A stretch of 16,625 nt of DNA from a virus (IMGVR_UViG_2778261459_000008), one strand, 5' to 3'. Shown: positions 2,446 through 16,625, counted from the first letter of the stretch. Made by a program: numbers and translations. Notes: generated by a model from the sequence alone, not told the origin.

Positions 2446-2468
2446 ATCAAGCATTTAGCTAACCTGAA

Positions 2469-2487: not shown

Positions 2488-2670
2488 CAAAACCTACGTT
2501 TTTTACCGTTCGGATATGTTTGCTAATGTTCATCTATGATACTGATATAAAACAATAAAATTGATTTATCGGTTTGCCTTTGTTCATTGCCGTTCATAGA
2601 GTAACATTGATATGTGCAGTCAGTGGTGCAGTCAGTTTGGCGTACCAAATGATATGAACTGAGGTTTTCA

Positions 2671-3894
2671 ATGGCTGGTGGAACGAACAAATTAAGCGAT
2701 ACATCGCTTCGTAAAATGCTGGGAAGGGAGAGCCCCGGAGACAGCTTCTATGCTGATGGCGATGGGCTAAGTGTGAAGGTGTCCAGATCGGGCGTGTTGA
2801 CTTGGTATTTCACTTTCCGCATAGGTGGCCGGGAATCAACATCTCAGCGTATAAAGCTGGGTAATTATCCAGACCTTTCACTCAAAGCAGCTCGTGAGAA
2901 ACGAGAGCAGTGTCGCGCATGGCTCGCAGAGGGAAAGAATCCAAAGCACCAGTTGAGCGTTACGACTCAGGAAACGTTAAAGCCGGTGACAGTCAGGGAT
3001 GCCCTTGAATACTGGATCAGGGAATATGCCACCCATAACCGCGCTAATGTTGAAAAGCACATTGAGCAGCTCAATAAGCATATCTTTCCTTATATAGGTA
3101 CTTATCCGCTTTCTATGTGTGAAACTCGCCACTGGCTGGAATGTTTCGCCAGGGTAAGGAACGAAGCGCCTGTAGCGGCTGGCTATCTTTTGCAGATGTG
3201 TAAGCAAGCACTCAAGTTCTGCCGGGTTCATCGGTATGCGGTGAGTAACGTCCTGGACGATCTGACCATTGACGATGTTGGACGTAAACAGAATAAGCGG
3301 GACAGGGAGCATACCCGGCAAGAACTTGCTGATATATGGCGAGAATGCTCAGGCCTGAAATTTAAGCCCTACTACTCAGCTCTATTACGTCTGCTGGTGG
3401 TGTTTGGCTGCCGAACTCAGGAGCTGAGATTATCTCGCGTAACCGAATGGGATCTAAATGATTGGGTTTGGACGGTACCTAAAGAGCACAGCAAAGGTGG
3501 TGAGAAAATACTACGGCCTATTCCCGTAGATATTCGCCCATTTATCAAACAGCTTTTAGAGCAGCACCAAAGCACAGGGCTATTGCTGGGAGAGATAAAG
3601 AAACCGGAAGCTGTCAGTCAGTGGGGAAGGATGTTGTATAAGCGTCTGGGCCACTCTGAACCGTGGACGCTTCACGATTTACGCCGTACATTTTCCACGA
3701 CTCTGAACAACATGGGAATTGCTCCGCATGTTGTCGAGCAGCTTCTGGGCCATGCGCTGGGCGGTGTCATGTCCGTATATAACCGCAGTCAGTATTTACC
3801 TGAAAAGCTGGATGCACTGAATAAATGGATGCAGAGATTAGATGTTATTACCTCTGATATCTCAAATGTTACTATTCTTGAGGTCGCAAGATGA
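2671..3894 (+). CDS. int: tyrosine site-specific integrase (P4/CP4-57-like phage integrase family)
   Basis: 407-aa ORF; N-terminal DUF4102-like arm-binding region (GLSVKVSRSGVLTWYFTFRIGGRESTSQRIKLGNYPDLSLKAAREKREQCRAWLAEGKNP); C-terminal catalytic signature (HDLRRTFSTTL ... LGHALGGVMSVYNRSQY); SD GAGG 8 nt upstream of the ATG. Confidence 0.9.
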   Translation: MAGGTNKLSDTSLRKMLGRESPGDSFYADGDGLSVKVSRSGVLTWYFTFRIGGRESTSQRIKLGNYPDLSLKAAREKREQCRAWLAEGKNPKHQLSVTTQETLKPVTVRDALEYWIREYATHNRANVEKHIEQLNKHIFPYIGTYPLSMCETRHWLECFARVRNEAPVAAGYLLQMCKQALKFCRVHRYAVSNVLDDLTIDDVGRKQNKRDREHTRQELADIWRECSGLKFKPYYSALLRLLVVFGCRTQELRLSRVTEWDLNDWVWTVPKEHSKGGEKILRPIPVDIRPFIKQLLEQHQSTGLLLGEIKKPEAVSQWGRMLYKRLGHSEPWTLHDLRRTFSTTLNNMGIAPHVVEQLLGHALGGVMSVYNRSQYLPEKLDALNKWMQRLDVITSDISNVTILEVAR

Positions 3895-4733
3895 TAAAAA
3901 AAATTAACAGTAAAAGAGACTTACCAAAGTCATTCAGCTTAGAAAAATATGATGACCTTGAAAATATGTCTGATAAGGATTTGTTTCGTCAGCTTTATTG
4001 GCGATGCGATGATTTAACAATAAAAAATACAGACTGCCCTGACTATGGTTTGCAATATGGTGCTAAATACCCGCTTAACAATAATTTTGGTGATCCATTC
4101 GGGGAACTCAAAGCAGAAGAATGGTTTCTTGAAAAGCAAAAGGAATACGAGTACAAGACTCAGCCTGATTTGCTGAAATTAAGTTACGGCGATGGTATAA
4201 AACCATTAATGCGATTTGAGTTGGCATTTTTAAATAAAATCAATGCTGATAAAGGTCACTGGAAAGGAAAGCCAATAGTAGTTGACGATGATTTGGTGGG
4301 GGATTTGTTTACAGCAGATAACGGTATGTTTTGGGCTGTCATGCGTGAGCCAGTAAACTTACTTTCTGATGTTGTGGAAAACGTGATGATTACTGTTGAC
4401 TTAAACAACAGAGATGATCTTTTGATTGAAGCATTCACGAACCTCCTCCCAAAATGGCGCGAAGAACTCGGAATACCTGAACCAGATAAGCCAGTCTCAG
4501 GGGACTGGGAGAGCGTCAGACGGAAGATAATTGACTACAGAATAATTCCACTTATTGATTTGATGTCATGGGAAAGCGCTACCGACAGCAAAATATCCCT
4601 TGGCGTACTCGCAGTATCCCTGTTCCCGGATGGGGAAAAGGAGTCCTTTGCCATAGCTCAAACGGTGAAACCTTTCTTGGATAAAATTATGAGAAGTGAT
4701 TCTTTAGATAAAATCAGGAAAGAATTATCTTGA
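3891..4733 (+). CDS. hypothetical protein, 280 aa, AT-rich cargo gene translationally coupled to the integrase (ATGA overlap)
   Basis: Uninterrupted ORF whose ATG overlaps the int stop (ATGA at 3891-3894); visibly lower GC than flanking genes; no motif I can assign; followed by a strong terminator. Confidence 0.6.
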   Translation: MIKKINSKRDLPKSFSLEKYDDLENMSDKDLFRQLYWRCDDLTIKNTDCPDYGLQYGAKYPLNNNFGDPFGELKAEEWFLEKQKEYEYKTQPDLLKLSYGDGIKPLMRFELAFLNKINADKGHWKGKPIVVDDDLVGDLFTADNGMFWAVMREPVNLLSDVVENVMITVDLNNRDDLLIEAFTNLLPKWREELGIPEPDKPVSGDWESVRRKIIDYRIIPLIDLMSWESATDSKISLGVLAVSLFPDGEKESFAIAQTVKPFLDKIMRSDSLDKIRKELS

Positions 4734-4811
4734 TATAACTGAATCAGGGTAACTCCTTTAGAGGAATATAATTTTTTTCTCACCGTCGCGGTGATAATTT
4801 TTTTGAATAAG

Positions 4812-4848
4812 AATGCTCTCGAACCCTAGCGAACGAGAGCATTTTTTT
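4812..4848 (+). terminator. rho-independent terminator after the 280-aa gene; its T-tract runs into the alpA start codon
   Basis: AATGCTCTCG (4812-4821) pairs with CGAGAGCATT (4834-4843), followed by TTTTTTT and then ATG at 4849. Confidence 0.65.
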
Positions 4849-5058
4849 ATGAACAATATTAAACAATCCCAGCAGCCAGCAGAAAGAGTTATCCGTGAGG
4901 CTGAGTGCCGGCAGCTAACCGGTATTTGTCGAACCACTCGATACATGATGGAAAAAGAGGGGAGCTTTCCCGCCCGCCGCAAGCTGGGAGGTCGTGCTGT
5001 TGGTTGGCTTCTGTCTGAGGTCACAGCATGGCAGCAGAGCCGCAGCAAAGCAGCGTGA
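4849..5058 (+). CDS. alpA: AlpA-family phage/island transcriptional regulator (excisionase-like HTH)
   Basis: 69-aa product MNNIKQSQQP...CRQLTGICRTTRYMMEKEGSFPARRKLGGRAVGWLLSEVTAWQQ carries the AlpA signature (LTG.sR.T.Y....G.FP....LGGR.VGW...E...W). Start at 4849 chosen over the upstream in-frame ATG at 4813 by length similarity to AlpA; no clear SD for either. Confidence 0.8.
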   Translation: MNNIKQSQQPAERVIREAECRQLTGICRTTRYMMEKEGSFPARRKLGGRAVGWLLSEVTAWQQSRSKAA

Positions 5059-5399
5059 GGGGTGGGAAATGTCACATAAAACAAAAGCGGCCATGCAGGG
5101 CCGCCAATGTCACTACCAAAAACTTAAGCAAAGTCAGGATACCAGGGTTAATGCTAGTGGTCAAAGCCAGAGCGCTGCTGGGATTAAAGGAACTGCGGCA
5201 TTGGCGCACACCCTATTTCCCCAAATCTGGGGAGAACTGGATCATCATGCGGGGTGTGCTGCAATGCAGCATACCCCGGAGAAATCCCGTAGTTTCGACA
5301 AATACCCAGATATTGGGTGTTATGGCCTGCATAAAATCACACCTGCGGTTCTTATTCCTGTCCCCGGCTCTTCTTTAGCTCATTTGCAATGGCGGATAT

Positions 5400-5654
5400 T
5401 TAATCACGTGGTAACCAGCCTTTCGCATTCCTTTTGGGGATTGGAAGGTTCTTTTCCTTCAAAATACGTAAAATGGCAGGTTCTGAATGTGGTCCCCAAC
5501 CATCCCAATTACCTTCCCAACAGTCGTTACAGCAGAAAGCCCTACCGTATAATTGCAGTACACGTCCTTGGTAAAGGTCTGGGCCAAATCGTGTTTCTGA
5601 TCCACAGACTTCACATGTGCAATAAAAATGCCCTTTCTCATCTATGCGCATCAT
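5400..5654 (-). CDS. hypothetical Cys-rich small protein (putative zinc-binding), second gene of a two-gene minus-strand operon
   Basis: Product MMRIDEKGHFYCTCEVCGSETRFGPDLYQGRVLQLYGRAFCCNDCWEGNWDGW... contains C-x-C-x2-C and CC-x2-C clusters; GAGGA sits 5 nt upstream of the ATG at 5654; it lies 1 nt downstream of the stop of the upstream RHH gene. The ORF track extends it to a TTG at 5666. Confidence 0.5.
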   Translation of the reverse strand: MMRIDEKGHFYCTCEVCGSETRFGPDLYQGRVLQLYGRAFCCNDCWEGNWDGWGPHSEPAILRILKEKNLPIPKRNAKGWLPRD

Positions 5655-5667
5655 CTTCTTCCTCAAA

Positions 5668-5877
5668 TCAACCTTTTGGTTCTATTCCTTGCCGACGCAA
5701 TTCCGCGCGAGCTAATTCTTTTATCCAATTACCAAGACTTACGCCTTCGCGCTCCGCTGCATCGTTCAGTTGCTGGCGTAGATCAGGGTTGATTCTGATC
5801 TGGAAAGTAGGTGACCAGCCATCACCTTTAGGGGTTTTGTCTCGTTTAATTGTTGACACGTACGTACATAACCTCAT
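5668..5877 (-). CDS. ribbon-helix-helix (CopG/Arc/MetJ-like) DNA-binding protein; start codon uncertain (ATG at 5877 or GTG at 5859)
   Basis: The C-terminal 45 aa (SPTFQIRINPDLRQQLNDAAEREGVSLGNWIKELARAELRRQ) has the beta-strand plus two-helix pattern of RHH repressors. The ORF-track N-terminal extension to 5970 is merely the translation of the palindrome and is unlikely to be coding. Confidence 0.55.
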   Translation of the reverse strand: MRLCTYVSTIKRDKTPKGDGWSPTFQIRINPDLRQQLNDAAEREGVSLGNWIKELARAELRRQGIEPKG

Positions 5878-5904
5878 AGCATGTATTTTGTTATGTACGT
5901 ACGT
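5858..5904. promoter_or_regulatory. perfect 15-bp inverted repeat (ACGTACGTACATAAC, 17-bp spacer, GTTATGTACGTACGT): candidate operator in the divergent control region
   Basis: Read directly: 5858-5872 is the exact reverse complement of 5890-5904. It lies between the minus-strand RHH gene and the plus-strand replication operon starting at 5993; TTGACA is at 5852-5857. Confidence 0.6.
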
Positions 5905-5992
5905 TATCACGTCTGGCATAGAAAAGACAACGCCCCAAACTGTTGGAGCAGTATTGGGGCGTCTAACCAAACCGTTAGTTGAGGTAACAGTT

Positions 5993-6205
5993 ATGGCTGA
6001 ATTACAGCATACCCAAACTCGCCCGGAATTTACATGGAGATTTATCTCTGCTTCTGAGCGCTACCCTACCGCCAAACCATTGGTGATCTACGTCAACGCA
6101 TCCAGCGAACAGGAGGCCCGCGACACTATGCCGGGTGTAAACCTCATTTTCGCAGCACGTCTCCCATTCCATGCCTTTCAGGCAATGGAGGTACGCCATG
6201 CGTGA
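5993..6205 (+). CDS. hypothetical protein, 70 aa, first gene of the replication-module operon
   Basis: ATG at 5993 with GAGG 8 nt upstream; product MAELQHTQTRPEFTWRFISASERYPTAKPLVIYVNASSEQEARDTMPGVNLIF...; stop overlaps the next start. The 403-aa track ORF 4994-6205 is mostly spurious read-through; only this 3' part looks genic. Confidence 0.5.
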   Translation: MAELQHTQTRPEFTWRFISASERYPTAKPLVIYVNASSEQEARDTMPGVNLIFAARLPFHAFQAMEVRHA

Positions 6206-6383
6206 ATTAACCAATAAAAGTGCGTCAATAGCCTGTGAACTGGCTGCGTTGTTGATGGTTGTCGAAGAGTGCGACGTTGATCAGGTTGAGCGTGAAAACC
6301 TTATCAGTCTGGCCAGACGAGTATCGGATCAACTGGCGGCAAGCATGGTCGAGCAGAATTCAACGGGGGGGCTCAATGGATAA
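6198..6383 (+). CDS. hypothetical small protein, 61 aa, paralogue of the next gene
   Basis: ATG at 6198 with GGAGG 6 nt upstream; overlaps upstream stop and downstream start. Confidence 0.5.
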   Translation: MRELTNKSASIACELAALLMVVEECDVDQVERENLISLARRVSDQLAASMVEQNSTGGLNG

Positions 6384-6603
6384 CTTTTACACCTACCGCA
6401 GCAAAAAAGATTTGCTGTTACTGGCGCAAGAGGTTGCCGCGCTTCTGTCATGTGCTGCTTACCTTGCGACTACCAGAGGCGAGGAAGAGCGTATCCATGT
6501 AATGAGTTTGACGCACCTGGCTCAACGGCTTTCTGACGAGCTGGCAAACTCACTGGATATTTCTACTTTTTCAGACCCTGAATCGCGGGAGGCAAAATCA
6601 TGA
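6376..6603 (+). CDS. hypothetical small protein, 75 aa, paralogue of the previous gene
   Basis: ATG at 6376 preceded by a G-rich SD-like run; shares the pattern A..LAALL...ER...SLA.R.SD.LA.S with the 6198-6383 product; overlaps the next start (ATGA at 6600-6603). Confidence 0.5.
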   Translation: MDNFYTYRSKKDLLLLAQEVAALLSCAAYLATTRGEEERIHVMSLTHLAQRLSDELANSLDISTFSDPESREAKS

Positions 6604-6968
6604 TCAGCAATGTGAAGTTTTACGAGCTGGCTAAGCGCGTTGATCTGCTGGTTGAAAAGGTTTTGCATCTTGAGGCACAGGTTAAGTCACTCACTGATAG
6701 TCAGGGGGGGGAAATCCCTCCGGGTATGACGCCAGTAGCAACACTGGCCGCTGAATACGGTATCTCAACCAATAAGGCTGAGGAACTGGCGAAAAACACA
6801 GGGGTGATGCTGGTTAAGCTGAAATCTGGCGGGTTCGTTGCACCTGATGAAAAGTTCAGGGAAGCGGCGCGTCTGGTGCTGCGCAGCGCTAAGCGCAAAT
6901 ATGGCTCTGCGTACTGGTTCCATCCTCTGATCGGCAAATTCCAGATGAGCGGGGGCATTCCAAAATGA
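6600..6968 (+). CDS. hypothetical protein, 122 aa, translationally coupled to the helicase gene
   Basis: ATG at 6600 with GGGAGG 8 nt upstream; ATGA overlap with the downstream gene at 6965-6968; no recognisable motif. Confidence 0.55.
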   Translation: MISNVKFYELAKRVDLLVEKVLHLEAQVKSLTDSQGGEIPPGMTPVATLAAEYGISTNKAEELAKNTGVMLVKLKSGGFVAPDEKFREAARLVLRSAKRKYGSAYWFHPLIGKFQMSGGIPK

Positions 6969-8329
6969 CGGTACAACTGACAGCTGTAGAAACCGTTTCT
7001 GATGCCCTGTTCACCTGTTCGTATCTGTGGGCGCACGGCAAGCAATACAGTCGCAGCGATTTGGATAAAGCGCTCCACCAGCATAAGGACCCCACTACCC
7101 GTTACGGAAAGCTGGTGGCTCGCCTCAACCAGATAGCAGCAATGCCGTATGAGGAACTCTGTGATGCCGGATATCTCGATACGGACCGCAAACAAATGAT
7201 TACAGCGCGGCGTTCTGTGCTGGTGGAAGAGATAGGCGAAGGGGAAATGAATGCCATGCTGTCTGACGTGCAGCGCATTCACCGGGTCTTCCCTGATGCT
7301 GGTGCAAAGTTCAGGACAAAGCTGCCTCTCTCTCGCGGTTCTGAGGGCTTTGATATCCGTCAGGACTATGTCCTTAAACACTTTCTGCCAGCGCAATCAC
7401 TGTGCAGCATTTACGGTCCCAGCGGTTCGTATAAGAGTTTTCTCGCTGTATCGTGGGCCTGTCACATTGCTGCGGGTCTGCCATGGGCTGGGAAGAAGGT
7501 CACTTCCGGCGCGGTGCTGTATGTGGTTGGTGAGGGGGGCGTAGGCGTTCCCCGGCGTATAAAGGCTTGGGAGCAGGTGCACGGCATACAGGCGGACAAC
7601 CTCTGGCTGGTCAATCGTCCGGTGTTTCCTGTGCGCGAGTCAGAGGTAACGGAAGTGCTTCTGGCTGCCAGACAGATTGAAGCTGAATGTGGTGTGCCGG
7701 TTCGCATGGTGGTGATCGATACGCTGGCCCGTTGTTTTGGCGGTAACGACGAGAACGATGCTCGTGATATGGGGGCATTTATTGAAGGGTGTGACGTTAT
7801 CAAACAGAAAACGGGTGCAACGGTGCTGATAGTTCACCACTCCGGCAAAGATGAAGGGAAAGGCGCTCGCGGTTCCAGTGCTTTCCGCGCTGCGCTTGAT
7901 ACTGAATTTAACGTTAAGCGTGAAGGGGATGGAAAGGCGCTTATTCTGACCTGTACCAAGATGAAAGACGCGGAGGAGCCAGAGCGTAAAGCGTATGACC
8001 TGAGAACGGCAGAGCTTTACACCGATGAAGATGGTGAGCTTGTTTGCTCTCTGGTTGTGCACGATCAGCCGAGAGAGGCTAAAGAGGTTGAGCCTGAACT
8101 GGCCAATGTCTCCCGTCTTAGCGATAACCACCATGCATTATGGCAGGCAGTACGCAGCCGCACAGCTAAGGGGGAGCCATGCACTATCTCCGTCATTAAA
8201 GATGATCTGCGTGCAACACTGGGGACAGATAAAGTGAGAAAGTCATTCTCGCGCTGGCTGGACAAGCTGGAGAGTGAGCAAATTATTCGCATCGAGGGTG
8301 AGAACCTTTACCCGGTAACAGTCGAGTAA
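6965..8329 (+). CDS. replication initiator/helicase, RecA-like AAA_25 (RepA-like) ATPase with predicted C-terminal winged-helix DNA-binding domain
   Basis: Walker A (IYGPSGSYKSF), Walker B-like (VRMVVIDTLARCFGG), HHSGKD motif; C-terminal about 90 aa basic and helical; immediately followed by iterons. Confidence 0.8.
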   Translation: MTVQLTAVETVSDALFTCSYLWAHGKQYSRSDLDKALHQHKDPTTRYGKLVARLNQIAAMPYEELCDAGYLDTDRKQMITARRSVLVEEIGEGEMNAMLSDVQRIHRVFPDAGAKFRTKLPLSRGSEGFDIRQDYVLKHFLPAQSLCSIYGPSGSYKSFLAVSWACHIAAGLPWAGKKVTSGAVLYVVGEGGVGVPRRIKAWEQVHGIQADNLWLVNRPVFPVRESEVTEVLLAARQIEAECGVPVRMVVIDTLARCFGGNDENDARDMGAFIEGCDVIKQKTGATVLIVHHSGKDEGKGARGSSAFRAALDTEFNVKREGDGKALILTCTKMKDAEEPERKAYDLRTAELYTDEDGELVCSLVVHDQPREAKEVEPELANVSRLSDNHHALWQAVRSRTAKGEPCTISVIKDDLRATLGTDKVRKSFSRWLDKLESEQIIRIEGENLYPVTVE

Positions 8330-8330
8330 A

Positions 8331-8522
8331 TGCGGCGGTAAGTGCGGCATGTGCGGCATTTAGTATGTTTTATGACCAAATGCCGCACTTAGCCCCTGTA
8401 TACACGCGCTAAGTGCGGCATTTCACTGAAACCACCGTCATTACTGGTTTTGCATGATTTTTTGAGATAACTGGTGCGGCGCTAAGTGCGGCATTACTAA
8501 ACGCGGCACTAAATGCGGCAAG
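8331..8522. repeat. iteron array (replication origin): about 6-7 copies of TAAGTGCGGCATT-like repeats in both orientations plus an AT-rich stretch
   Basis: Copies read at about 8339-8349, 8351-8360, 8379-8393 (reverse), 8410-8424, 8484-8497 and 8510-8522, with degenerate TGCGGCGG at 8331 and CGCGGCAC at 8502; AT-rich 8440-8470. Confidence 0.75.
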
Positions 8523-8543
8523 TTAGACAAACAAGGAGAATTT

Positions 8544-8783
8544 ATGCCTATTACGATTCATGAAATAAAGGAACATTACGATTATTACGGGCTTCATGAT
8601 ATGGTCTCCATGTCAACGAAAGAATACCAACAGATTTTAGCTAATGGTGCTTTGTTCTGGATGGATCATCATGATTTTGTTCGCAGCACTCTTTCCGATG
8701 AAATCTTGGCAACAAACAAGGAGCAACTAGATGCAATAATTGAGCATCTACAACAATACAGAGACAGAATGCCTTCTGCCTAG
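8544..8783 (+). CDS. hypothetical small protein, 79 aa, AT-rich cargo
   Basis: ATG at 8544 with AAGGAG 5 nt upstream; product MPITIHEIKEHYDYYGLHDMVSMSTKEYQQILANGALFWMDHHDF...; followed by a hairpin at 8793-8813. Confidence 0.6.
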   Translation: MPITIHEIKEHYDYYGLHDMVSMSTKEYQQILANGALFWMDHHDFVRSTLSDEILATNKEQLDAIIEHLQQYRDRMPSA

Positions 8784-8792
8784 AAATTTGTT

Positions 8793-8813: not shown

Positions 8814-8820
8814 GAATGTT

Positions 8821-10065
8821 TCAATAATTAAAGTGACTTTCAACTGAAAGTTGTTTGCAGCCCAATAATTTTAAAGCTTTTCGAATGTAATATAAAGCAG
8901 CGGTATTGTCGATAATGTAGCGGAAGGCTTCATTTTTATCTTGTTGTGCATCTCTTAAATTTCTTTCAAATTCTCTTTCATAATCTTCTGCGTAATATTG
9001 ATTGGATTGTCGGCCCATAATAATCAATGTGGTTAAATCTGCTAATTCTTCCTCTGAAAAGAGAGGTAGGTAAGTAGTGGTGATGCGCATTTTTAACCGT
9101 AGGTAGTCTAAAAAATCTTCTGCTCTGATATCGGATAAACTAATTCCTGAATCCTGTAGTGGGTCCAGAAATACGTTATTTTTTTTCATTACGTCTTTTA
9201 TATGTAGTGCGTACCAAGCTTTTTTAAAACGCAATAGTGTATTTTTCCCGCTATGTTTAAGTGGAAATTCAACGCCAATTAAAGATGATAGGTATCTATT
9301 TACAACAATTTTGTCGATTGCTTTTATAAGTTGTTTGTTGCTATTGAGATTAAATTTTTTCTTGATGAATTCCTTTTTTTTCACTGTAAGTGTAGTTACC
9401 CATTCATTTTTATTACCTAGAGCTTTTGAAAGCTTGATTAGATCACGGCGTGAAAATTTATCGGTATACGTACCTGTTTTATACTCATCTTTCAGATTTA
9501 GAGTGAGCTTAATTATTTCTCGCAAACCTTCCGTGAGCTTTTTGAAATAAACAACAAATCTTACAAGGTTAATGATCGGTGTTTTTTCCAAATGTGTCGC
9601 TCCGACATTGGACTCAGGGTATCTAAAAGTTTGTGCTGTGTCGTCTATAGCCACAAAGTCTAATATATAAGGCTCGATTTTTTTTGTAATGTGAAATAGT
9701 CGTATATCTGTCCTCTCAGCGACATCAATCGTGGCATCCCATAGTTTCTTGATGCTGTGGATTTTTGTCACATCAGGAACTGATATCGCCAATCCTCGGA
9801 GATCTGCCATGTCAATGAGGATAGTCTTTAGAGAAAGCTCAATTCCGTGCCTGGCAGAGTAGGCAATCGGATAAACAAGTAAATCAACTTCTCCTCTCTT
9901 GTTATTTTTGTATATATAGTCAGTAAGTATCTCTGGGGTTCTAAGGTAACCTTCAGCATAAGTTAATGAGTCAGGGAAACCATTCGTTCCGACGCAAGCA
10001 TTCAGCCAATCAAATCGACCATTGCCCAAACCAAAGGTGTTATTAAAGATTGTTTCTTTTTCCAT
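8821..10065 (-). CDS. hypothetical protein, 414 aa, AT-rich cargo gene on the opposite strand to the island backbone; candidate accessory/anti-phage function
   Basis: Uninterrupted minus-strand ORF with ATG at 10065 and AAGGA 8 nt upstream; markedly AT-rich versus flanking replication and capsid genes; no Walker, HNH, DPPY or other catalytic motif recognised. Confidence 0.7.
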   Translation of the reverse strand: MEKETIFNNTFGLGNGRFDWLNACVGTNGFPDSLTYAEGYLRTPEILTDYIYKNNKRGEVDLLVYPIAYSARHGIELSLKTILIDMADLRGLAISVPDVTKIHSIKKLWDATIDVAERTDIRLFHITKKIEPYILDFVAIDDTAQTFRYPESNVGATHLEKTPIINLVRFVVYFKKLTEGLREIIKLTLNLKDEYKTGTYTDKFSRRDLIKLSKALGNKNEWVTTLTVKKKEFIKKKFNLNSNKQLIKAIDKIVVNRYLSSLIGVEFPLKHSGKNTLLRFKKAWYALHIKDVMKKNNVFLDPLQDSGISLSDIRAEDFLDYLRLKMRITTTYLPLFSEEELADLTTLIIMGRQSNQYYAEDYEREFERNLRDAQQDKNEAFRYIIDNTAALYYIRKALKLLGCKQLSVESHFNY

Positions 10066-10312: not shown

Positions 10313-11482
10313 ATGAAGAAATTAATCGAACTCCGCCAGCAAAAAACCGCCCTGAAAAACCAGATGCGATCCCTGCTGGAAAAAGCCGACAGTGAAAACC
10401 GCAGTCTGACCGATGACGAGGGCAAACAGTTTGATGAACTGCGTGCAAAAGCTGATTCCCTCGATACAGACATTTCCCGCCTCGAGTCTGTGGCTGATGA
10501 AGAACGCAGCAAGCCAGGAACGGGCATCCAGAAATTATCATCTGATGAATTGCGTAACTACATCGTAACCGGAGATGTGCGATCTCTGTCCACCAGCACT
10601 GACAGCGGCAGGGATGGCGGATATACCGTAATTCCTGAGCTTGATCGCGAAGTCATGCGCCAGCTACAGGATGACAGTGTTATGCGCGTGATCGCGACCG
10701 TGAAGACTGCAAAATCAAATGAGTTTCAGAAACTGGTTTCCACTGGCGGCGCAACTGTAGGACGAGGCACAGAAGGCAGCGCACGCAGTGAAACCAACAC
10801 CCCGAAAATTGAACGCGTAACCATCAAGCTGAATCCGATCTACGCCTACCCGAAAACCACGCAGGAAATCCTGGATTTTTCAGAGGTGGATATTCTGGGC
10901 TGGTTATCCTCCGAAATTGCCGACACGTTCGCCAGCACCGAAGAGGATGATTTTGTTAATGGCGACGGTAACGGCAAGCCGAAAGGCTTCATGGCTTACA
11001 CCCGTGCGGCGACCAGTGACAAAACCCGCGCTTTTGGCACCATTGAAAAAATGGTAGCGGCAAGTGGAACCGCCATTACAGCGGACGAACTGATCGACAT
11101 TCTCTACAAGCTGAAAGCGAAATACCGCAAAAATGCCGTCTGGGTGATGAACTCGGGCACGGCAGGGACACTACAGAAGCTGAAAAATGAGAACGGCGAT
11201 TATATCTGGCGCGACAGCCTTAAAGAAGGTGCGCCGGATATGTTGCTTGGTCGTCCTGTTTACTGCCTGGAGTCCATGCCGGACATCGGCGCAGGAAAAG
11301 CACCGCTAGCGGTTGGCGATTTCAGTCGTGGTTATTTCATCGTTGATCATGTAACAGGGATTCGCACCCGACCGGACAACATTACTGAACCCGGATTCTA
11401 CAAGGTCCACACGGATAAATATCTGGGCGGTGGTGTGGTGGATTCAAACGCCATCAAAATTCTGGAAATGAAAGCTGGCTAG
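10313..11482 (+). CDS. major capsid protein, HK97 fold, with N-terminal coiled-coil delta (scaffold) domain
   Basis: 389 aa; N-terminal about 70 aa is a charged coiled coil (LIELRQQKTALKNQMRSLLEKADSENRSLTDDEGKQFDELRAKADSLD); FVNGDGNGKPKGF motif typical of HK97-family capsids; strong terminator immediately downstream. Confidence 0.85.
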   Translation: MKKLIELRQQKTALKNQMRSLLEKADSENRSLTDDEGKQFDELRAKADSLDTDISRLESVADEERSKPGTGIQKLSSDELRNYIVTGDVRSLSTSTDSGRDGGYTVIPELDREVMRQLQDDSVMRVIATVKTAKSNEFQKLVSTGGATVGRGTEGSARSETNTPKIERVTIKLNPIYAYPKTTQEILDFSEVDILGWLSSEIADTFASTEEDDFVNGDGNGKPKGFMAYTRAATSDKTRAFGTIEKMVAASGTAITADELIDILYKLKAKYRKNAVWVMNSGTAGTLQKLKNENGDYIWRDSLKEGAPDMLLGRPVYCLESMPDIGAGKAPLAVGDFSRGYFIVDHVTGIRTRPDNITEPGFYKVHTDKYLGGGVVDSNAIKILEMKAG

Positions 11483-11494
11483 TCATGAGTAAGG

Positions 11495-11517
11495 AGGAGG
11501 CTGCGGCCTCCTTTTTC
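11495..11517 (+). terminator. rho-independent terminator directly after the capsid gene
   Basis: AGGAGGC-tgcg-GCCTCCT followed by TTTTT. Confidence 0.65.
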
Positions 11518-11536
11518 AGCTTTATGGAGTACACCG

Positions 11537-12097
11537 ATGAAAAACACCGATTTTGAAATCCGCACATCTGAACTGACCGCCAGCAATAAAAAGCTGGTGG
11601 GGTATGCCGTTCGCTGGAACAGCCTTTCAGAAATTATCTGGGACGAATTCCGCGAACAGTTCACGCCGGGGGCTTTTGCTGACTATCTGGCGGCGGGTAA
11701 TGATGTGCGCTGCCTGTATGAGCATGACTATACCCAACTGCTGGGGCGCACCAAATCCGGCACTCTGGTACTGACTGAGGATAACACCGGGTTACGTTTT
11801 GAGCTGACACCGCCGGATACCCAGCTTGGAAAAGATGTGCTTACGCTGGTGGAGCGTGGCGACATTACAGGAATGAGCTTTGGTTTTCGCGCATTATGCG
11901 AGGAGTGGAGTATCGCGCAAAAACCGTATCTGCGTACCGTAACCGCCGCTGAACTCCGTGAAATCACAATAACGTCGATGCCTGCTTATCCAGAATCTGG
12001 CGTGGAGATTGCCCGCCGTTCGTTGTTTGCACAGCACCCTGAATTACGTCCGACAGGAAATAATCGTCATCGTTGGTCTGAGTTGGCGGGGTTGTGA
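11537..12097 (+). CDS. prohead maturation protease (HK97 family, S78/U35-like)
   Basis: 186 aa; N-terminal ...KKLVGYAVRWNSLSEII...FTPGAF pattern typical of HK97 prohead proteases; GGAG 7 nt upstream of the ATG. Confidence 0.8.
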   Translation: MKNTDFEIRTSELTASNKKLVGYAVRWNSLSEIIWDEFREQFTPGAFADYLAAGNDVRCLYEHDYTQLLGRTKSGTLVLTEDNTGLRFELTPPDTQLGKDVLTLVERGDITGMSFGFRALCEEWSIAQKPYLRTVTAAELREITITSMPAYPESGVEIARRSLFAQHPELRPTGNNRHRWSELAGL

Positions 12098-12098
12098 T

Positions 12099-13313
12099 AT
12101 GTGGTGGCCTTTTAGTCGTAAAAAAAGCGAGCAGCGTAACCTGTCCATTGATGATTTTCTGGCGCTGTCCGGCGTACCGAATACCGGATCCGGAGAATAT
12201 GTTTCTGCCGGGACGGCTGAATCATTGCCTGCAGTGATGAACGCGGTTTCTGTCATCGCTGAGGCGGTGGCCACGATGCCGTGTTATCTGTATCTGGTAC
12301 GTAATGACAAGGGCAGGGAGGCGCGGGAATGGCTGGACAGTCACCCGGTAGATATTCTGCTGAATGAGCAGCCTAATTCGTGCCAGACACCTTACCAGTT
12401 TAAACGCACAATGATGCGTCACTGCCTGCTGAACGGTAACGCCTATGCGGTTATTGAGTGGGGGCGGGACGGGCAGCCCAAATCACTTCATCCTTATGCA
12501 CCGGGTTGTGTTGTACCGGAACGCACAGGCGCACACAAATACCGATATACCATCACCGAACCCTATACAGGAACGGTGCGCACGTATTTACAGGAAGAAG
12601 TTCTGCATCTCCGCTATGCCTCGGATGATGGCTTTCTGGGGCGCTCCCCCGTCACGATTTGCCGTGAGGCACTTGGGCTTGGCCTTGCTCAACAGCGCCA
12701 CGGAGCCAGCATTATGAAAGATGGCATGATGGCGGCAGGGATTATCACGTCAGGCGAATGGCTGGACGGCGTGAAAGGTAAACAGGCATTAGATGCTCTG
12801 GAACGCTACAAGGGGGCGAAAAATGCCGGAAAAACGCCAATCCTTGAAGGGGGCATGGATTACAAGCAACTGGGAATGAGTAACCAGGATGCGGAATGGC
12901 TGGCCTCCCGTCGCTTCTCCATTGAAGACATCGCCCGCATGTTCAACGTATCGCCTATTTTTCTGCAGGAATACAGCAACAGCACCTACAGCAATTTCAG
13001 CGAGGCAAGCCGCGCGTTTCTGACCATGACAATGCGCCCATGGCTGGCGAACTTCGAACAGCAAATCAAGGCCGCTTTGCTGGTGGCTTCTCCCGTACCT
13101 GGTACCCGTTATCTGGTTGAGTTTGATTCAGCCGATTTATTACGCGCCACACCCACCGAACGTTATGCCACGTATGAGAAAGGGATTAAGAACGGGATCA
13201 TGAATCCGAACGAAGCCCGTGAGCGTGAGGGTATGCCGCCGCGTGAAGGTGGTGACGAGTTCAGCCAGGCATGGAAGCAGACTGTGGAAATTAAAGGTGA
13301 AAAAGATGAGTGA
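12099..13313 (+). CDS. portal protein (HK97 family)
   Basis: 404 aa from the ATG at 12099 (2 nt after the protease stop); conserved portal block RRFSIEDIARMFNVSPIFL; the ORF track's upstream extension to 12009 overlaps the protease gene and is unlikely. Confidence 0.85.
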   Translation: MWWPFSRKKSEQRNLSIDDFLALSGVPNTGSGEYVSAGTAESLPAVMNAVSVIAEAVATMPCYLYLVRNDKGREAREWLDSHPVDILLNEQPNSCQTPYQFKRTMMRHCLLNGNAYAVIEWGRDGQPKSLHPYAPGCVVPERTGAHKYRYTITEPYTGTVRTYLQEEVLHLRYASDDGFLGRSPVTICREALGLGLAQQRHGASIMKDGMMAAGIITSGEWLDGVKGKQALDALERYKGAKNAGKTPILEGGMDYKQLGMSNQDAEWLASRRFSIEDIARMFNVSPIFLQEYSNSTYSNFSEASRAFLTMTMRPWLANFEQQIKAALLVASPVPGTRYLVEFDSADLLRATPTERYATYEKGIKNGIMNPNEAREREGMPPREGGDEFSQAWKQTVEIKGEKDE

Positions 13314-13608
13314 ATCCAGAATTACGCTTAATGAAGTAATGGCCCATCTTCGCCTTGATGATGATTTTTATGGTGAGGTTGAACTTCTGCAAATATATAC
13401 CGATGCGGCGCTGGAAGCCTGCCAGAAGCATATCGGGAAACGTTTTGAAGACGGCCTGGAATTTACCCCGGCAATACGTGTTGGTTGCCTGATGTACATC
13501 GCTTTTCTGTACGAGAACCGGGAAGCGGTTTCACCAGTTGAGCACTCGGAACTGCCTATGGCTATTTCTGCGCTCTGGTCGGTTTATCGTGATGTGGGGG
13601 TGTACTGA
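13306..13608 (+). CDS. head-tail connector / DNA-packaging protein (gp6-like)
   Basis: 100 aa from the ATG at 13306, overlapping the portal stop; N-terminal ITLNEVMAHLRLDDDFYGEVELLQIYTDAALEA pattern typical of gp6-like connectors. Confidence 0.7.
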   Translation: MSESRITLNEVMAHLRLDDDFYGEVELLQIYTDAALEACQKHIGKRFEDGLEFTPAIRVGCLMYIAFLYENREAVSPVEHSELPMAISALWSVYRDVGVY

Positions 13609-14048
13609 TGCCGTGGCAACCATTAAGGCGATGCACTGAGCCGGGCTGTAATAAGCGCGTGAAGTCCGGCAAGTGTGAAGAGCACAGGCGGGCTGCATGG
13701 CGTGCAGAGGATGCCAGACGGGGACACCGCCGCGCACGTGGGTATTCCCGACAGTGGGACAAATACCGCGCCCTGTACCTGAGCAAAAACCCGTTATGCG
13801 TGCGTTGTCTGGCTAAGGGTATTTATACACCAGCTCTTGTGGTGGATCACATCATTCCCATCAATGGCGGCGGTGATGTTCTCTTCTGGCCTGAGTGGAA
13901 TCACCAGGCATTGTGCCAGACGTGCCACAACCGTAAGACGACACGGGAAGATCCAGCCACGAAAGCAAACCGTAAAGCGGGCATGTATCGCGAGCAGGAA
14001 GAACGGGCGGCACACCGTAACGACTGGATGTATGGCGATGATGACTGA
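13608..14048 (+). CDS. HNH endonuclease (packaging-associated)
   Basis: 146 aa; CxxC ... DHIIP ... H ... CQTCHNRK zinc-finger HNH signature; start overlaps the connector stop (TGATG). Confidence 0.85.
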   Translation: MPWQPLRRCTEPGCNKRVKSGKCEEHRRAAWRAEDARRGHRRARGYSRQWDKYRALYLSKNPLCVRCLAKGIYTPALVVDHIIPINGGGDVLFWPEWNHQALCQTCHNRKTTREDPATKANRKAGMYREQEERAAHRNDWMYGDDD

Positions 14049-14217
14049 ACAGGAGCAAACCAGGCTGATACGTGGACTGATAAGGCAGCGTGACACATGG
14101 AAGACACAGGAGACAGAGCACAAAGCCAACAGGACAGGGCGCACAAAACGCACCACAGCGAAGCGATTAACCGACCGTGACCGCGAGGTCATGGAATGTT
14201 TTCGCAATCGCTGGTGA
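14041..14217 (+). CDS. possible small basic protein, 58 aa, overlapping the HNH stop; uncertain
   Basis: ATG at 14041 in an ATGA-type overlap with the HNH stop; product MTEQEQTRLIRGLIRQRDTWKTQETEHKANRTGRTKRTTAKRLTDRDREVMECFRNRW; no clear SD. Confidence 0.3.
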   Translation: MTEQEQTRLIRGLIRQRDTWKTQETEHKANRTGRTKRTTAKRLTDRDREVMECFRNRW

Positions 14218-14336
14218 GGCCGTCAGAGGGGGTGGGGGTGGTTTTCAGGACGAAACCGTCCCTGCCGGACACCGACCGCCCCCTCAAATTTTTGTGCACG
14301 GTAATTTTTTTGAAAATAATTGGGCGAAAAAAGAAC

Positions 14337-14693
14337 ATGGCAAGACCACCAAAAGCCCCCGCTTACCTGGATGAAATCGCGGTCAGGCAGTGGAAGGAAA
14401 AATCGCGCCAGCTTTCCGGGCGGGAAGACCTTACCCCCGCCGACTGGAGCAATCTGGAACTGTATTGTGTTAACTACTCCATATACCGCAAAGCCGTCGA
14501 AGACCTTGCGACGCGCGGGTTCAGCATTGTTAACAGTCAGGGCAGCGAGAGCAGAAACCCCGCACTGAGCGCAAAGGCTGACGCAGAAAGAATAATGATC
14601 AAAATGGCTTCTTTGCTGGGTTTTGACCCGGTAAGCCGTCGCAGAAATCCACCGGAAACAGAGGAAGAGGACGAACTTGACCGCCTGGCATGA
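14337..14693 (+). CDS. terminase small subunit (P27-family-like)
   Basis: 118 aa from the ATG at 14337 (MARPPKAPAYLDEIAVRQWKE...), an N-terminus typical of P27-type TerS; lies directly upstream of and overlaps TerL. Confidence 0.75.
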   Translation: MARPPKAPAYLDEIAVRQWKEKSRQLSGREDLTPADWSNLELYCVNYSIYRKAVEDLATRGFSIVNSQGSESRNPALSAKADAERIMIKMASLLGFDPVSRRRNPPETEEEDELDRLA

Positions 14694-16338
14694 GTACGCA
14701 GAAGGCGTAAAAAACGGCAAAATTACGGCCTGTAAACGACTGAAACAGGCCGTTAAACGGTATTTTTCTGACCTTGAAAACTCCCTTTACACGTTCGATC
14801 CGGAGGTCGTGGAGCGGTTTATTGCCTTTTCCCGGGTGTGTCCGCACGTAAAAGGCGCAATGCGCGGTAGTCCCATTGAACTGGAGCCGTGGCAGCAGTT
14901 CGCCTTTGCCTGCATCCTGGGCTTTAAGGTTAAGGCCACCGGACGGCGCAAATACACCAGCGCATTCATTGAAGTACCGCGAAAAAATGCCAAATCCACG
15001 GTCGCCGCTATCCTGGCTAACTGGTTTCTGGTTATGGAAAACGGGCAGCAGGATATTTACACCGCCGCCGTGAGTCGTGATCAGGCGCGGATCGTGTTTG
15101 ATGATGCGCGTCAGATGTGCCTTTTATCCCGACCGTTACGAAAGCGGGTAAATATTCAGGCGCACAAGGTGATACACCCGAAAACCAACAGCCTGTTAAA
15201 GCCACTGGCAGCAAAAGCGGCAACCATTGAGGGGACAAACCCGAGTCTTGCCATTGTGGATGAATATCACCTGCACCCAGACAACGGGGTTTATTCCGCA
15301 CTTGAGCTGGGGATGGGGGCGCGTCCGGAGGGGCTGTTATTTGCCATCACCACATCGGGGAGCAACGTTGTTTCAGCCTGTAAACAACACTATGACTATT
15401 GCTGTCAGATACTGGATGGTGAAGAGATGAACGAATCCATGTTCGTTCTGATTTACGAGCTGGATGATGAAAGCGAGGTTGACGATCCGGCGATGTGGAT
15501 AAAGGCGAATCCAAATATCGATGTTTCCGTCGATCGTGAAAAACTGGCCTCAACCATCCAGAAAGCGCGGGGTATTCCGTCGCAGTGGGTGGAAATGCTC
15601 ACCAAGCGATTCAATATCTGGTGTCAGGGGGCTACGCCGTGGATGGGTAACGGTGCATGGGCGGAGTGCGCCGGAACGTTCGCGGAGGCGGATTTATACG
15701 GGCAGGAGTGCTACGCGGGGCTGGACTTATCATCAACCAGCGATATTTCCAGCGTGTGCTATGCCTTTCCGGTCGGTAAAAAGATTATGCTGGTTTCCCG
15801 TCACTATCTGCCGGAATTTCAGCTACAGAACCCCGCCAATAAAAACCGCGCCATCTATCGCCAGTGGGTAAAGGCGGGCTGGATACGCACAACACCGGGT
15901 GACTGCATTGATTATGACCGTATCCGTGATGACATCATGGCGGATGCAGAGAATTTCAATATCAGGCTGGTGGGCTTCGATACATGGAACGCCACGCACC
16001 TGAGGACGCAGCTACAGGGGGCAGGATTTGAGGTGGAGCCGTTCCCGCAAACATACCTTCGTTTCAGTCCGGCGGCGAAATCGTTCGAAGTTTTTGTTAA
16101 CCGGAAGGTGATTGTGCATCGTGGTGATCCGGTGCTGGCCTGGTCAATGAGTAATGTTGTGATGCAGAGTGACGCGAACGCCAATATCAAGCCGAACAAG
16201 AAAAAATCATCCAACAAGATAGACCCGAGCGTTGCGGCGCTGATGGCGTTTGGCACATTCCAGGCAGAGCATGAGGAATTTGCATTTGATATGAGCGACA
16301 GCCACAAAGAGCGACTTGCGGCGTTTGATGGGGTATGA
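14677..16338 (+). CDS. terminase large subunit (ATPase/nuclease)
   Basis: 553 aa; apparent TTG start at 14677 with AAGAGG 6 nt upstream (no in-frame ATG/GTG until about residue 61); Walker A-like VPRKNAKST; acidic nuclease-domain motifs; 16-nt overlap with TerS. Confidence 0.85.
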   Translation: MTAWHEYAEGVKNGKITACKRLKQAVKRYFSDLENSLYTFDPEVVERFIAFSRVCPHVKGAMRGSPIELEPWQQFAFACILGFKVKATGRRKYTSAFIEVPRKNAKSTVAAILANWFLVMENGQQDIYTAAVSRDQARIVFDDARQMCLLSRPLRKRVNIQAHKVIHPKTNSLLKPLAAKAATIEGTNPSLAIVDEYHLHPDNGVYSALELGMGARPEGLLFAITTSGSNVVSACKQHYDYCCQILDGEEMNESMFVLIYELDDESEVDDPAMWIKANPNIDVSVDREKLASTIQKARGIPSQWVEMLTKRFNIWCQGATPWMGNGAWAECAGTFAEADLYGQECYAGLDLSSTSDISSVCYAFPVGKKIMLVSRHYLPEFQLQNPANKNRAIYRQWVKAGWIRTTPGDCIDYDRIRDDIMADAENFNIRLVGFDTWNATHLRTQLQGAGFEVEPFPQTYLRFSPAAKSFEVFVNRKVIVHRGDPVLAWSMSNVVMQSDANANIKPNKKKSSNKIDPSVAALMAFGTFQAEHEEFAFDMSDSHKERLAAFDGV

Positions 16339-16625
16339 CGAGAATGACTGAAACTGATCTACTAAAAATAATTCGCCGCATTACCGGAATCAGTCAGCAG
16401 CCTGACGAACAGGCTACACAGCCGGACAGCGTGATAGCCGAAAATTACGCGCGTGTGGTGGCTGAGGTGATGCGCCGTGACGGTATTGAGCTTAACGGCG
16501 TGGATATGCGCAACATACGAACCAGAGTCCTTGAGTTGCTGGCATACCGTCGCCGTTCTCAACAACGGAGGGAGAGCGCGAAAAATACTTACCAGTGGAA
16601 GAAGCCGGAACGACTGCGGCGGTAA
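16335..16625 (+). CDS. hypothetical protein, 96 aa, downstream of TerL (possibly a head-completion/packaging accessory protein)
   Basis: ATG at 16335 overlapping the TerL stop (ATGA); stop at 16623-16625; no recognisable motif. Confidence 0.5.
   Translation: MTRMTETDLLKIIRRITGISQQPDEQATQPDSVIAENYARVVAEVMRRDGIELNGVDMRNIRTRVLELLAYRRRSQQRRESAKNTYQWKKPERLRR

What the first reader, a model, noticed from the sequence alone, without database searches (positions are those of the whole stretch)
2488..16625. Satellite-type island with its own HK97-like head/packaging module but no tail or lysis genes in view (capsid-forming PICI-like)
Gene order int, cargo, alpA, small-gene switch, RepA-like helicase with iterons, cargo, then capsid, protease, portal, connector, HNH, TerS, TerL matches a phage-inducible chromosomal island that builds its own small capsids and borrows helper tails. 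The head-module order (capsid-protease-portal before HNH-TerS-TerL) is rearranged relative to canonical HK97-like phages. The island extends past the window end, so completeness cannot be judged.
Basis: partly seen in the sequence, partly recalled or inferred. Interest (0 to 1): 0.7.

Follow-up and report, generated by a model that had tools for sequence, protein, structure and literature searches.

The report
Capsid-forming phage satellite island (cf-PICI)
This is a 14.9-kb E. coli phage satellite of the already-described cf-PICI family, which builds its own small capsids and borrows only tails from a helper phage; its one unusual trait is that it lacks one of the two head-to-tail joining genes that the studied cf-PICIs carry.

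Summary
The window carries nearly all of a 14,938-bp island. It is bounded by a perfect 82-bp direct repeat and sits between yhdJ and the 3' end of fis in E. coli. In the near-identical strain HZ13, only about 720 bp of non-coding DNA, attR and fis follow the window end. There are no tail or lysis genes.

Every head and packaging call is supported by profile searches. The module matches, gene for gene and in the same order, the experimentally proven cf-PICIs EcCIEDL933 and EcCIGN02175 (58-93% amino-acid identity). EcCIGN02175 uses the same fis site. The "rearranged" head-gene order is the normal cf-PICI order. So this is a new member of a known family.

One twist: the gp16(SPP1)-type head-closure gene, called "head-tail adaptor" in the cf-PICI papers, lies between portal and connector in the prototypes but is absent here. 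Instead there is a distinct connector allele. This eight-gene module occurs in 143 of 5,426 complete E. coli genomes, on at least three backbones and integration sites, and its genes are under purifying selection. It is therefore probably functional. How such heads are closed and joined to tails is unknown.

The parts
2406..2487 (.). attL: left copy of the 82-bp perfect direct repeat. The right copy (attR) lies beyond the window, at window-equivalent 17344-17425, and overlaps the last 19 nt of fis and its terminator.
   Evidence: family D1 (spacing 14,938 bp). A rebuilt empty site, yhdJ-single att-fis, is contiguous in 5,309 of 5,426 E. coli genomes.
2611..2638 (.). Tandem 11-nt motif (TATGTGCAGTCAGTGGTGCAGTCAGTTT). 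It recurs immediately inside attR. Candidate integrase arm-type or AlpA binding sites (inferred).
   Evidence: families D6 and D7. An analogous tandem motif sits at both ends of the island in L008 (D9).
2671..3894 (+). Tyrosine integrase with an arm-DNA-binding domain.
   Evidence: Arm-DNA-bind_3 8e-19, Phage_integrase 9e-17. 62% and 56% amino-acid identity to the EcCIGN02175 and EcCIEDL933 integrases.
3891..4733 (+). DUF6387 protein of unknown function. It overlaps int by 4 nt and is linked to the same integrase type in the XH992 island.
   Evidence: No PADLOC hit.
4849..5058 (+). AlpA-family regulator/excisionase. The induction switch in Gram-negative PICIs, by homology.
   Evidence: PF05930, E 9e-16. 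66% identity to the EcCIEDL933 AlpA.
5668..5859 (-). YlcI/YnfO (HicB-like ribbon-helix-helix) small DNA-binding protein, divergent from the rightward operon. Candidate island repressor (inferred).
5993..6968 (+). Rightward early operon of small genes: Icd-like (5993-6205), hyp61 (6198-6383), hyp75 (6376-6603), hyp122 (6600-6968, phrog_6610).
6965..8329 (+). RepA-family (AAA_25) replicative helicase. This is the island's replication protein; the prototypes carry a primase-type (DUF927/primase) gene instead.
8331..8521 (.). Origin candidate: four ~20-nt iterons (TGCGGCGNTAAGTGCGGCAT) at 8331, 8402, 8475 and 8502, plus overlapping GTGCGGCAT sub-repeats.
   Evidence: families D2 and D3.
8544..8783 (+). 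Conserved small protein (phrog_1957), also present in EcCIGN02175 and EcCIEDL933.
8821..10065 (-). Accessory gene in the variable slot before the packaging operon: a 414-aa DUF3775-containing protein at 35% GC. Function unknown; no match to known defence systems.
10313..11482 (+). HK97-fold major capsid protein with an N-terminal delta (scaffold) domain.
   Evidence: TIGR01554, 6e-102. PDB 9GYI (EcCIEDL933 capsid) E 3e-155. 64% and 75% identity to the EDL933 and GN02175 capsids.
11537..12097 (+). Prohead serine protease (S78).
   Evidence: 6e-46.
12099..13313 (+). Portal protein (404 aa). It is intact in the window. HZ13 has a C>T change at 13278 that creates a stop 11 codons early.
13306..13608 (+). 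gp6-like head-tail connector (Ad1 type), a distinct allele. It follows the portal directly; the head-closure gene found here in the prototypes is absent.
   Evidence: TIGR01560, 2.5e-20..
13608..14048 (+). HNH endonuclease, the terminase-associated packaging nuclease of HK97-type systems.
   Evidence: 84% identity to the EDL933 protein.
14032..14217 (+). Small basic protein (61 aa). Ortholog (77% identity) of the EcCIEDL933 gene that sits between HNH and TerS.
14217..14336 (.). Candidate cos/packaging-initiation region: an intergenic block with invariant G-rich and C-rich segments, conserved across six cf-PICIs (inferred).
14337..14693 (+). Small terminase, P27 family.
14677..16338 (+). Large terminase (ATPase plus nuclease domains).
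   Evidence: 93% identity to the EcCIEDL933 TerL.
16344..16625 (+). Last gene of the operon: a 93-aa helical, basic-tailed protein (phrog_1561), 75% identical to the EcCIEDL933 gene in the same position. Function unknown.

Best explanation
The region is a capsid-forming phage-inducible chromosomal island (cf-PICI). It is integrated by its own tyrosine integrase at the 3' end of fis in E. coli.

By homology with EcCIEDL933 and EcCIGN02175, the inferred life cycle is:
1. A helper phage, or SOS induction of resident prophages, switches on alpA.
2. AlpA together with Int excises the 14.9-kb element.
3. The RepA-family helicase replicates it from the iteron origin just downstream of its gene.
4. 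The late operon makes an HK97-fold capsid protein that the S78 protease matures on the island's own portal into small capsids. These are T=4 in EcCIEDL933, sized for about 15 kb.
5. TerS, TerL and HNH cut and package island DNA from a cos-like site upstream of terS.
6. The filled head is joined to a tail supplied by a helper phage, because the island has no tail or lysis genes.

What is shown here: the gene content, the element boundaries, orthology to the proven cf-PICIs, and the absence of tail and lysis genes. Every dynamic step is inferred.

Particular to this island: it carries only the gp6-like connector and no gp16(SPP1)-type head-closure gene (the 'adaptor' of the cf-PICI papers). The last step of head completion must therefore differ from the prototypes. 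My best guess is that the divergent connector allele recruits the helper's own head-closure protein together with the tail.
For: Boundaries and insertion:
- 82-bp perfect direct repeat, 14,938 bp apart.
- The empty site is contiguous in 5,309 of 5,426 genomes.
- fis follows directly after attR.

Gene content:
- Profile hits above curated cut-offs for integrase, AlpA, capsid, protease, portal, connector, HNH, TerS and TerL.
- No tail, holin or lysin family matched.

Relationship to proven cf-PICIs:
- Same gene order as EcCIEDL933 (L005) and EcCIGN02175 (L004, same yhdJ-fis site), with 58-93% amino-acid identity.
- Capsid matches PDB 9GYI, the EcCIEDL933 capsid, at E 3e-155.
- The biology of the family is taken from 10.1101/2022.09.08.507074 and 10.1101/2025.02.11.637232.

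Other features:
- Iterons lie next to repA.
- A conserved block lies upstream of terS.
- Near-identical copies occur in strains from humans, pigs and poultry.

The adaptor-less state looks like a maintained architecture:
- No head-closure homolog in any of six frames (best E 0.18, against 1e-58 in the EDL933 control).
- The same junction is in 143 of 5,426 genomes.
- It occurs on three backbones and integration sites.
- It also occurs in divergent lineages, including a probable non-E. coli host.
- dN/dS is 0-0.35 for eight of the nine module genes; the 61-aa gene is the exception, at 1.6 from 7 differences in the pairs involving the OkiPb01705 island.
Against: - No experiment bears on this particular island. 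Induction, helper identity, capsid size and transfer are all extrapolated.
- The DNA beyond the window was read from HZ13 and relatives, not from the window's own genome. That genome differs: it has an IS1 at positions 1-237 and 3 SNPs.
- In EcCIEDL933, knocking out any packaging-module gene, the adaptor included, abolished transfer even with helper HK106 present. A helper's head-closure protein therefore does not automatically substitute.
- No record in the phage database (INPHARED) carries this connector allele.
- The purifying-selection signal could partly reflect recombination with adaptor-bearing relatives rather than selection after the loss.
Confidence: 0.9

Rival explanations
1. A cf-PICI that is no longer transmissible. 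Loss of the head-closure/adaptor gene left heads that cannot retain DNA or dock tails, so the island is a decaying passenger that spreads only by generalised transduction or vertical descent.
For: The adaptor gene is absent. In EcCIEDL933 every packaging gene, apart from the hypothetical gene 1792, was required for transfer. No phage-database record carries this connector allele. HZ13 has a nonsense SNP near the end of its portal gene.
Against: The same eight-gene module is intact in 143 genomes and in 46 of the 75 IMG/VR loci analysed. It sits on at least three different backbones and integration sites. It is paired with its own conserved connector allele. It shows dN/dS of 0-0.35 in eight of its nine genes, with no frameshifts in the copies inspected. 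Divergent lineages (65-72% DNA identity) share the architecture.
Confidence: 0.2
2. A remnant of an ordinary HK97-like prophage that lost its tail and lysis genes by deletion.
For: The head and packaging proteins belong to HK97-type families.
Against: There are precise att repeats, with int at one end and the packaging operon running to the other. The gene order differs from that of HK97-like prophages in the same genomes. It carries PICI-type alpA and replication modules. It is orthologous to proven satellites. The size and layout recur in hundreds of genomes.
Confidence: 0.03

Closest known systems
EcCIEDL933, the prototype cf-PICI (E. coli O157:H7 EDL933, between roxA and phoQ; Alqurainy et al., 10.1101/2022.09.08.507074; capsid structure PDB 9GYI)
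   Same: Layout is int-alpA-early genes-replication-accessory, then capsid-protease-portal-connector-HNH-small ORF-TerS-TerL-93-aa ORF. It has no tail or lysis genes and is about 15 kb. Amino-acid identities: TerL 93%, TerS 88%, HNH 84%, portal 81%, capsid 64%.
   Different: EDL933 has a head-closure ('adaptor') gene between portal and connector; this island has none. The connectors are only 58% identical. EDL933 replicates with a DUF927 primase plus SSB and PerC, where this island has a RepA helicase plus iterons. The integration site and accessory genes also differ.
EcCIGN02175 (He et al., 10.1101/2025.02.11.637232), the cf-PICI found in seven species
   Same: The same yhdJ-fis integration site and att sequence and the same overall order. 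Identities: capsid 75%, protease 83%, portal 87%, TerL 83%.
   Different: GN02175 carries both the adaptor and the connector, a primase-type replication gene, other accessory genes, and DUF3892 in place of the 93-aa last gene. Its integrase is only 62% identical.
cf-PICI in E. coli strain 10 (L006)
   Same: The packaging module is almost identical: capsid 99.5%, portal 99.2%, HNH 97.9%, TerL 96.6%.
   Different: It keeps the head-closure gene, and its connector is only 59% identical. This is a cassette swap of the kind He et al. describe for tail specificity, but in the window's island the cassette has one gene rather than two.
Classical Gram-negative PICIs (e.g. EcCICFT073)
   Same: The int-alpA-replication left half and AlpA-dependent induction (from the papers).
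   Different: Classical PICIs encode no capsid, portal or TerL. They remodel or redirect the helper's capsids.
HK97-like temperate phages (e.g. the prophages in L003, L006 and L008)
   Same: The protein families for capsid, protease, portal, connector, HNH and the P27-type TerS/TerL packaging system.
   Different: The phages have tail and lysis genes, genomes of about 40 kb, and the order HNH-TerS-TerL-portal-protease-capsid-connector-head closure.

Membership tests
cf-PICI (SatelliteFinder model: 11 core components, at least 9 required, tails and holins forbidden; PMC10085698) | Integrase | tested here: met
cf-PICI | AlpA-type regulator | tested here: met
   (PF05930, 9e-16).
cf-PICI | Primase/replicase module | tested here: inconclusive
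   A RepA-family AAA_25 helicase with adjacent iterons is present. It is not the primase type of the prototypes, and it was not scored against SatelliteFinder's own profiles.
cf-PICI | HK97-fold major capsid protein | tested here: met
cf-PICI | Prohead serine protease | tested here: met
cf-PICI | Portal | tested here: met
cf-PICI | Head-tail connector (gp6-like, TIGR01560) | tested here: met
cf-PICI | Head-tail adaptor (gp16_SPP1-type head-closure protein, TIGR01563) | tested here: not met
   No homolog in six frames of the whole att-bounded element (best E 0.18; EDL933 control 1e-58). tblastn also found nothing. The portal is followed directly by the connector. With this gene missing the island has at most 10 of 11 components, which the SatelliteFinder model still accepts: 10 of 11 is its 'Type B' and 9 of 11 its 'Type C'.
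cf-PICI | HNH nuclease, TerS and TerL | tested here: met
cf-PICI | No tail or holin genes inside the element; size about 14-16 kb | tested here: met
   The last 800 bp were read from HZ13, not from the window's own genome.
cf-PICI | Helper-dependent induction, self-made small capsids, transfer that needs only helper tails | not testable with these tools
   Shown for EcCIEDL933, EcCIGN02175 and KpCIDSM30104 only.
HK97-like prophage | Tail, tail-completion and lysis modules | tested here: not met

The most novel reading that the evidence does not exclude
This island represents a widespread, so far uncharacterised sub-architecture of cf-PICIs. Its packaging module has eight genes rather than nine. 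The gp16-type head-closure ('adaptor') gene is missing, and a dedicated connector allele takes the place of the usual two-gene tail-specificity cassette.

If these elements are transmissible, they must complete their heads in one of two ways. Either they also steal the helper's head-closure protein, so they take more than tails, or they dock tails directly on the connector.

Either way, their DNA-filled tail-less capsids may be unstable outside the cell. That would restrict the 'tail piracy' route described for other cf-PICIs.
Probability: 0.35. Interest if true: 0.55.

Novelty: new member of a known kind. Interest (0 to 1): 0.33.

Why it matters
As a cf-PICI it is ordinary. The family was described in 2022-23, is reported in 13% of Enterobacteriaceae genomes, and one studied member uses the very same fis site.

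The useful output is a clean annotation and one concrete lead. About a quarter of the E. coli genomes that match this part of the packaging module (143 of 534) lack the gene that the cf-PICI papers treat as half of the tail-specificity determinant, a gene that is essential in the prototype. Working out how these heads are closed and joined to tails would test how general the "steals only tails / releases stable tail-less capsids" model is.

The accessory slot also holds an uncharacterised low-GC DUF3775 gene, at the position where such islands are expected to carry anti-phage systems.

Tried and rejected
- Locating EcCIEDL933. Two guessed 50-kb stretches of the EDL933 chromosome held only lambdoid and HK97-like prophages. 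The third stretch held it.
- The GN02175 genome record (CP041550) is not in the collection, so I used the identical copy in GN06667.
- An Rfam scan of the whole element found nothing significant. ARAGORN found no tRNA, so this is not a tRNA-targeting island.
- PADLOC gave no defence-system hit for any accessory or small protein.
- Head-closure gene elsewhere in the island. tblastn and a custom HMM over all six frames, including the 800 bp beyond the window, found none.
- Another island protein as a substitute. The only DNA shared by the three adaptor-less islands is the packaging module itself. Its two unknown small proteins also occur in EcCIEDL933, which has the adaptor. So they are not replacements.
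- A relationship between the variant connector and helper-phage connectors. The alignment shows no special similarity.
- Restoring the split prophage terL. I tried to show that excision of the nested islands in L006 and L008 would rebuild it, but the reference TerL was too distant and no long direct repeat was found. Left open.
- The supplementary tables of the 2022 cf-PICI preprint and of the SatelliteFinder paper are not held as text. I therefore could not check whether this island or the adaptor-less type is already listed there.
- A full-text literature search found no paper that discusses cf-PICIs without the adaptor. That is not proof that none exists.


Full report
**What is in the window**

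The left 2.4 kb is E. coli core chromosome: acrS (571-1233), yhdU and yhdJ (1499-2389, minus strand). The end of an IS1 element occupies positions 1-237.

From 2488 to the window end there is a run of mostly plus-strand genes. Profile searches identify them as:
- tyrosine integrase
- DUF6387 protein
- AlpA
- a HicB/YlcI-like gene on the minus strand, facing an Icd-like gene and three small ORFs
- a RepA-family AAA_25 helicase
- a conserved 79-aa ORF
- a low-GC DUF3775 gene on the minus strand
- HK97-type capsid, S78 prohead protease, portal, gp6-like connector, HNH, a 61-aa basic ORF, P27-family TerS, TerL and a 93-aa ORF

. Four ~20-nt iterons lie immediately downstream of the helicase gene, at 8331-8521.

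**Where it comes from and where it ends**

The island is 99.99% identical to E. coli HZ13: 2 SNPs across 14.1 kb, one of which gives HZ13 a premature stop in its portal gene. The window's own genome is a different strain, because it has an IS1 upstream of acrS that HZ13 lacks.

In HZ13 a perfect 82-bp direct repeat brackets the element. The right copy lies about 720 bp past the window end and overlaps the last 19 nt of fis. The repeat spacing is 14,938 bp.

I rebuilt the empty site (yhdJ, one att copy, fis). It is contiguous in 5,309 of 5,426 complete E. coli genomes, including K-12 derivatives. This is a precise site-specific insertion.

Nothing resembling tail, baseplate, holin or lysin genes lies inside the element.

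**What it is**

The layout matches the capsid-forming PICIs (cf-PICIs) described by Alqurainy et al. (10.1101/2022.09.08.507074) and He et al. (10.1101/2025.02.11.637232). I retrieved two characterised members:
- EcCIEDL933, located in the EDL933 chromosome between roxA and phoQ.
- A 100%-identical copy of EcCIGN02175 in strain GN06667, using coordinates from He et al. Table S1.

EcCIGN02175 occupies the same yhdJ-fis site with the same att sequence.

The packaging module is orthologous gene for gene and in the same order. Amino-acid identities to EDL933 / GN02175:

| Protein | EDL933 | GN02175 |
|---|---|---|
| capsid | 64% | 75% |
| protease | 63% | 83% |
| portal | 81% | 87% |
| connector | 58% | 62% |
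| HNH | 84% | 80% |
| small ORF (61 aa) | 77% | 37% |
| TerS | 88% | 83% |
| TerL | 93% | 83% |
| 93-aa ORF | 75% | no counterpart |

The capsid matches PDB 9GYI at E 3e-155. He et al. state that 9GYI is the EcCIEDL933 T=4 capsid.

The order capsid-protease-portal ... HNH-TerS-TerL really is different from HK97-like prophages in the same genomes. It is, however, the standard cf-PICI order and has already been noted by those authors.

The intergenic block upstream of terS (14217-14336) has long invariant G-rich and C-rich stretches across six cf-PICIs. It is my candidate for cos (inferred).

**How it most likely works**

This is inferred from the prototypes; nothing was tested for this island.
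1. A helper phage or prophage induction activates alpA.
2. Int and AlpA excise the island.
3. The RepA helicase fires the iteron origin.
4. The island's own capsid, protease and portal build small heads suited to about 15 kb.
5. TerS, TerL and HNH package island DNA from cos.
6. Tails come from a phage.

For the prototypes these steps rest on knock-outs, Southern blots, EM and cryo-EM.

**The one real difference**

EcCIEDL933, EcCIGN02175 and a very close relative in E. coli strain 10 all have two genes between portal and HNH:
- a gp16(SPP1)-type head-closure protein (TIGR01563)
- a gp6-like connector

The head-closure protein is what He et al. call the "head-tail adaptor". The GN02175-versus-EDL933 identities I computed (40% and 60%) match their quoted 40% and 61%.

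The window's island has only the connector. tblastn and a purpose-built HMM over all six frames of the whole att-bounded element find no head-closure homolog. The best E-value is 0.18, against 1e-58 for the EDL933 positive control.

Against strain 10, the rest of the module is nearly identical: capsid 99.5%, portal 99.2%, HNH 97.9%, TerL 96.6%. The connector is only 59% identical. Homology breaks right after the portal motif SQAWKQ (13278) and resumes about 35 codons into the connector. This is a cassette replacement of the kind He et al. link to tail specificity, but here the cassette has one gene.

**Is the one-gene cassette an accident?**

The evidence says no.
- The direct portal-connector junction occurs in 143 of 5,426 complete E. 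coli genomes. For scale, 534 genomes have some match to this part of the module.
- It sits on at least three backbones and integration sites: RepA helicase at fis; a primase backbone between rcnR and thiM; and a DUF927 backbone inside a prophage terL gene.
- In 75 IMG/VR loci retrieved with the connector, all 46 loci with a connector at least 87% identical to the window's lack an intervening gene.
- Six more divergent loci (connector 59-68% identical, DNA 65-72% identical) also lack an intervening gene. One of them is flanked by a fis gene only 85% identical to E. coli's, so it is probably from another genus.
- The remaining 23 loci have a 346-393-nt gap that encodes a head-closure homolog.
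- Among three adaptor-less modules, eight of the nine genes give dN/dS of 0-0.35. The exception is the 61-aa ORF, with 1.6 from 7 differences in the two pairs that involve the OkiPb01705 island.

Against easy substitution by the helper: in EcCIEDL933 the loss of any packaging gene abolished transfer even with helper HK106 present.

The only DNA the adaptor-less islands share is the packaging module itself. Its two unknown small ORFs are also present in EDL933. Any compensation must therefore come from the connector allele or from the helper. I favour recruitment of the helper's head-closure protein, at modest confidence. Direct tail docking, or a defective element, remain possible.

**Comparison with what is known, and novelty**

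Under the SatelliteFinder definition (11 core components, at least 9 required, tails and holins forbidden; PMC10085698), the island has at most 10 of 11 components and no forbidden ones. If its replication gene counts, that is a "Type B" cfPICI, the most common class in that survey (459 of 969).

It is thus a new member of a known family, not a new kind of element. The adaptor-less cassette may be a functionally distinct variant. I found no paper that discusses it, but the relevant supplementary tables and figures were not readable.

**Verdict**

Interest is low to moderate (0.33): ordinary as a cf-PICI, with one specific, testable anomaly in head completion.

Noticed in passing
window 1-237: The window starts inside an IS1 element: the C-terminus of the IS1 transposase (PF03400, E 7e-39) followed by the terminal inverted repeat. 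It is inserted in the acrE-acrS intergenic region and is absent from HZ13. From my own knowledge, IS insertions upstream of acrEF can activate this efflux pump. It also shows that the window's source strain is not HZ13.
   Followed up: partly
L006 1-17233 and L008 1151-17889 (also IMG/VR loci L038-L041, L044, L046-L048, L050, L075): Related cf-PICIs, both with and without the adaptor gene, are integrated inside the large-terminase gene of an HK97-like prophage. The insertion splits terL into N- and C-terminal pseudogene halves, and the prophage's head, head-closure and tail genes lie just downstream. A satellite nested in the packaging gene of a potential helper would block that phage until the island excises. 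I could not define the att core or show that excision restores terL.
   Followed up: partly
L001 26132-26177 (begins at window 16619) and L001 26439-26482; L005 29856-29900: A ~46-nt element immediately after the last gene is 98% conserved in EcCIEDL933, although the rest of the right-end non-coding region is not. A diverged second copy lies 304 bp downstream. It contains two short palindromes (ACGCAAAATTGCGT and GTGCAAATTTGCAC), which may be a protein-binding site or a terminator. There is no Rfam match.
   Followed up: partly
window 8821-10065 (minus strand): A 414-aa DUF3775-containing protein in a 35% GC patch occupies the variable slot where cf-PICIs are expected to carry anti-phage systems. 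It has no PADLOC or PHROGs hit and is a candidate uncharacterised defence or accessory gene.
   Followed up: partly
window 13278: HZ13 has a C>T change here that turns portal codon Gln394 into a stop, removing the last 11 residues. The window's copy is intact. The RefSeq annotation of HZ13 accordingly ends the portal gene 33 nt early.
   Followed up: yes
window 2611-2638 and L001 26828-26855: A tandem 11-nt motif (GTGCAGTCAGT, two copies) sits just upstream of int and again just inside attR. The unrelated island in L008 has its own tandem motif at both ends (GTGTATTGC, two copies). These are probably arm-type recombinase or AlpA binding sites.
   Followed up: no
window 10313-11482: After the EcCIEDL933 capsid, the best solved-structure matches for the capsid are the Rhodobacter capsulatus gene transfer agent capsids (6TB9 and 6TBA, E ~2e-55). 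HK97's own capsid is not among the matches.
   Followed up: no
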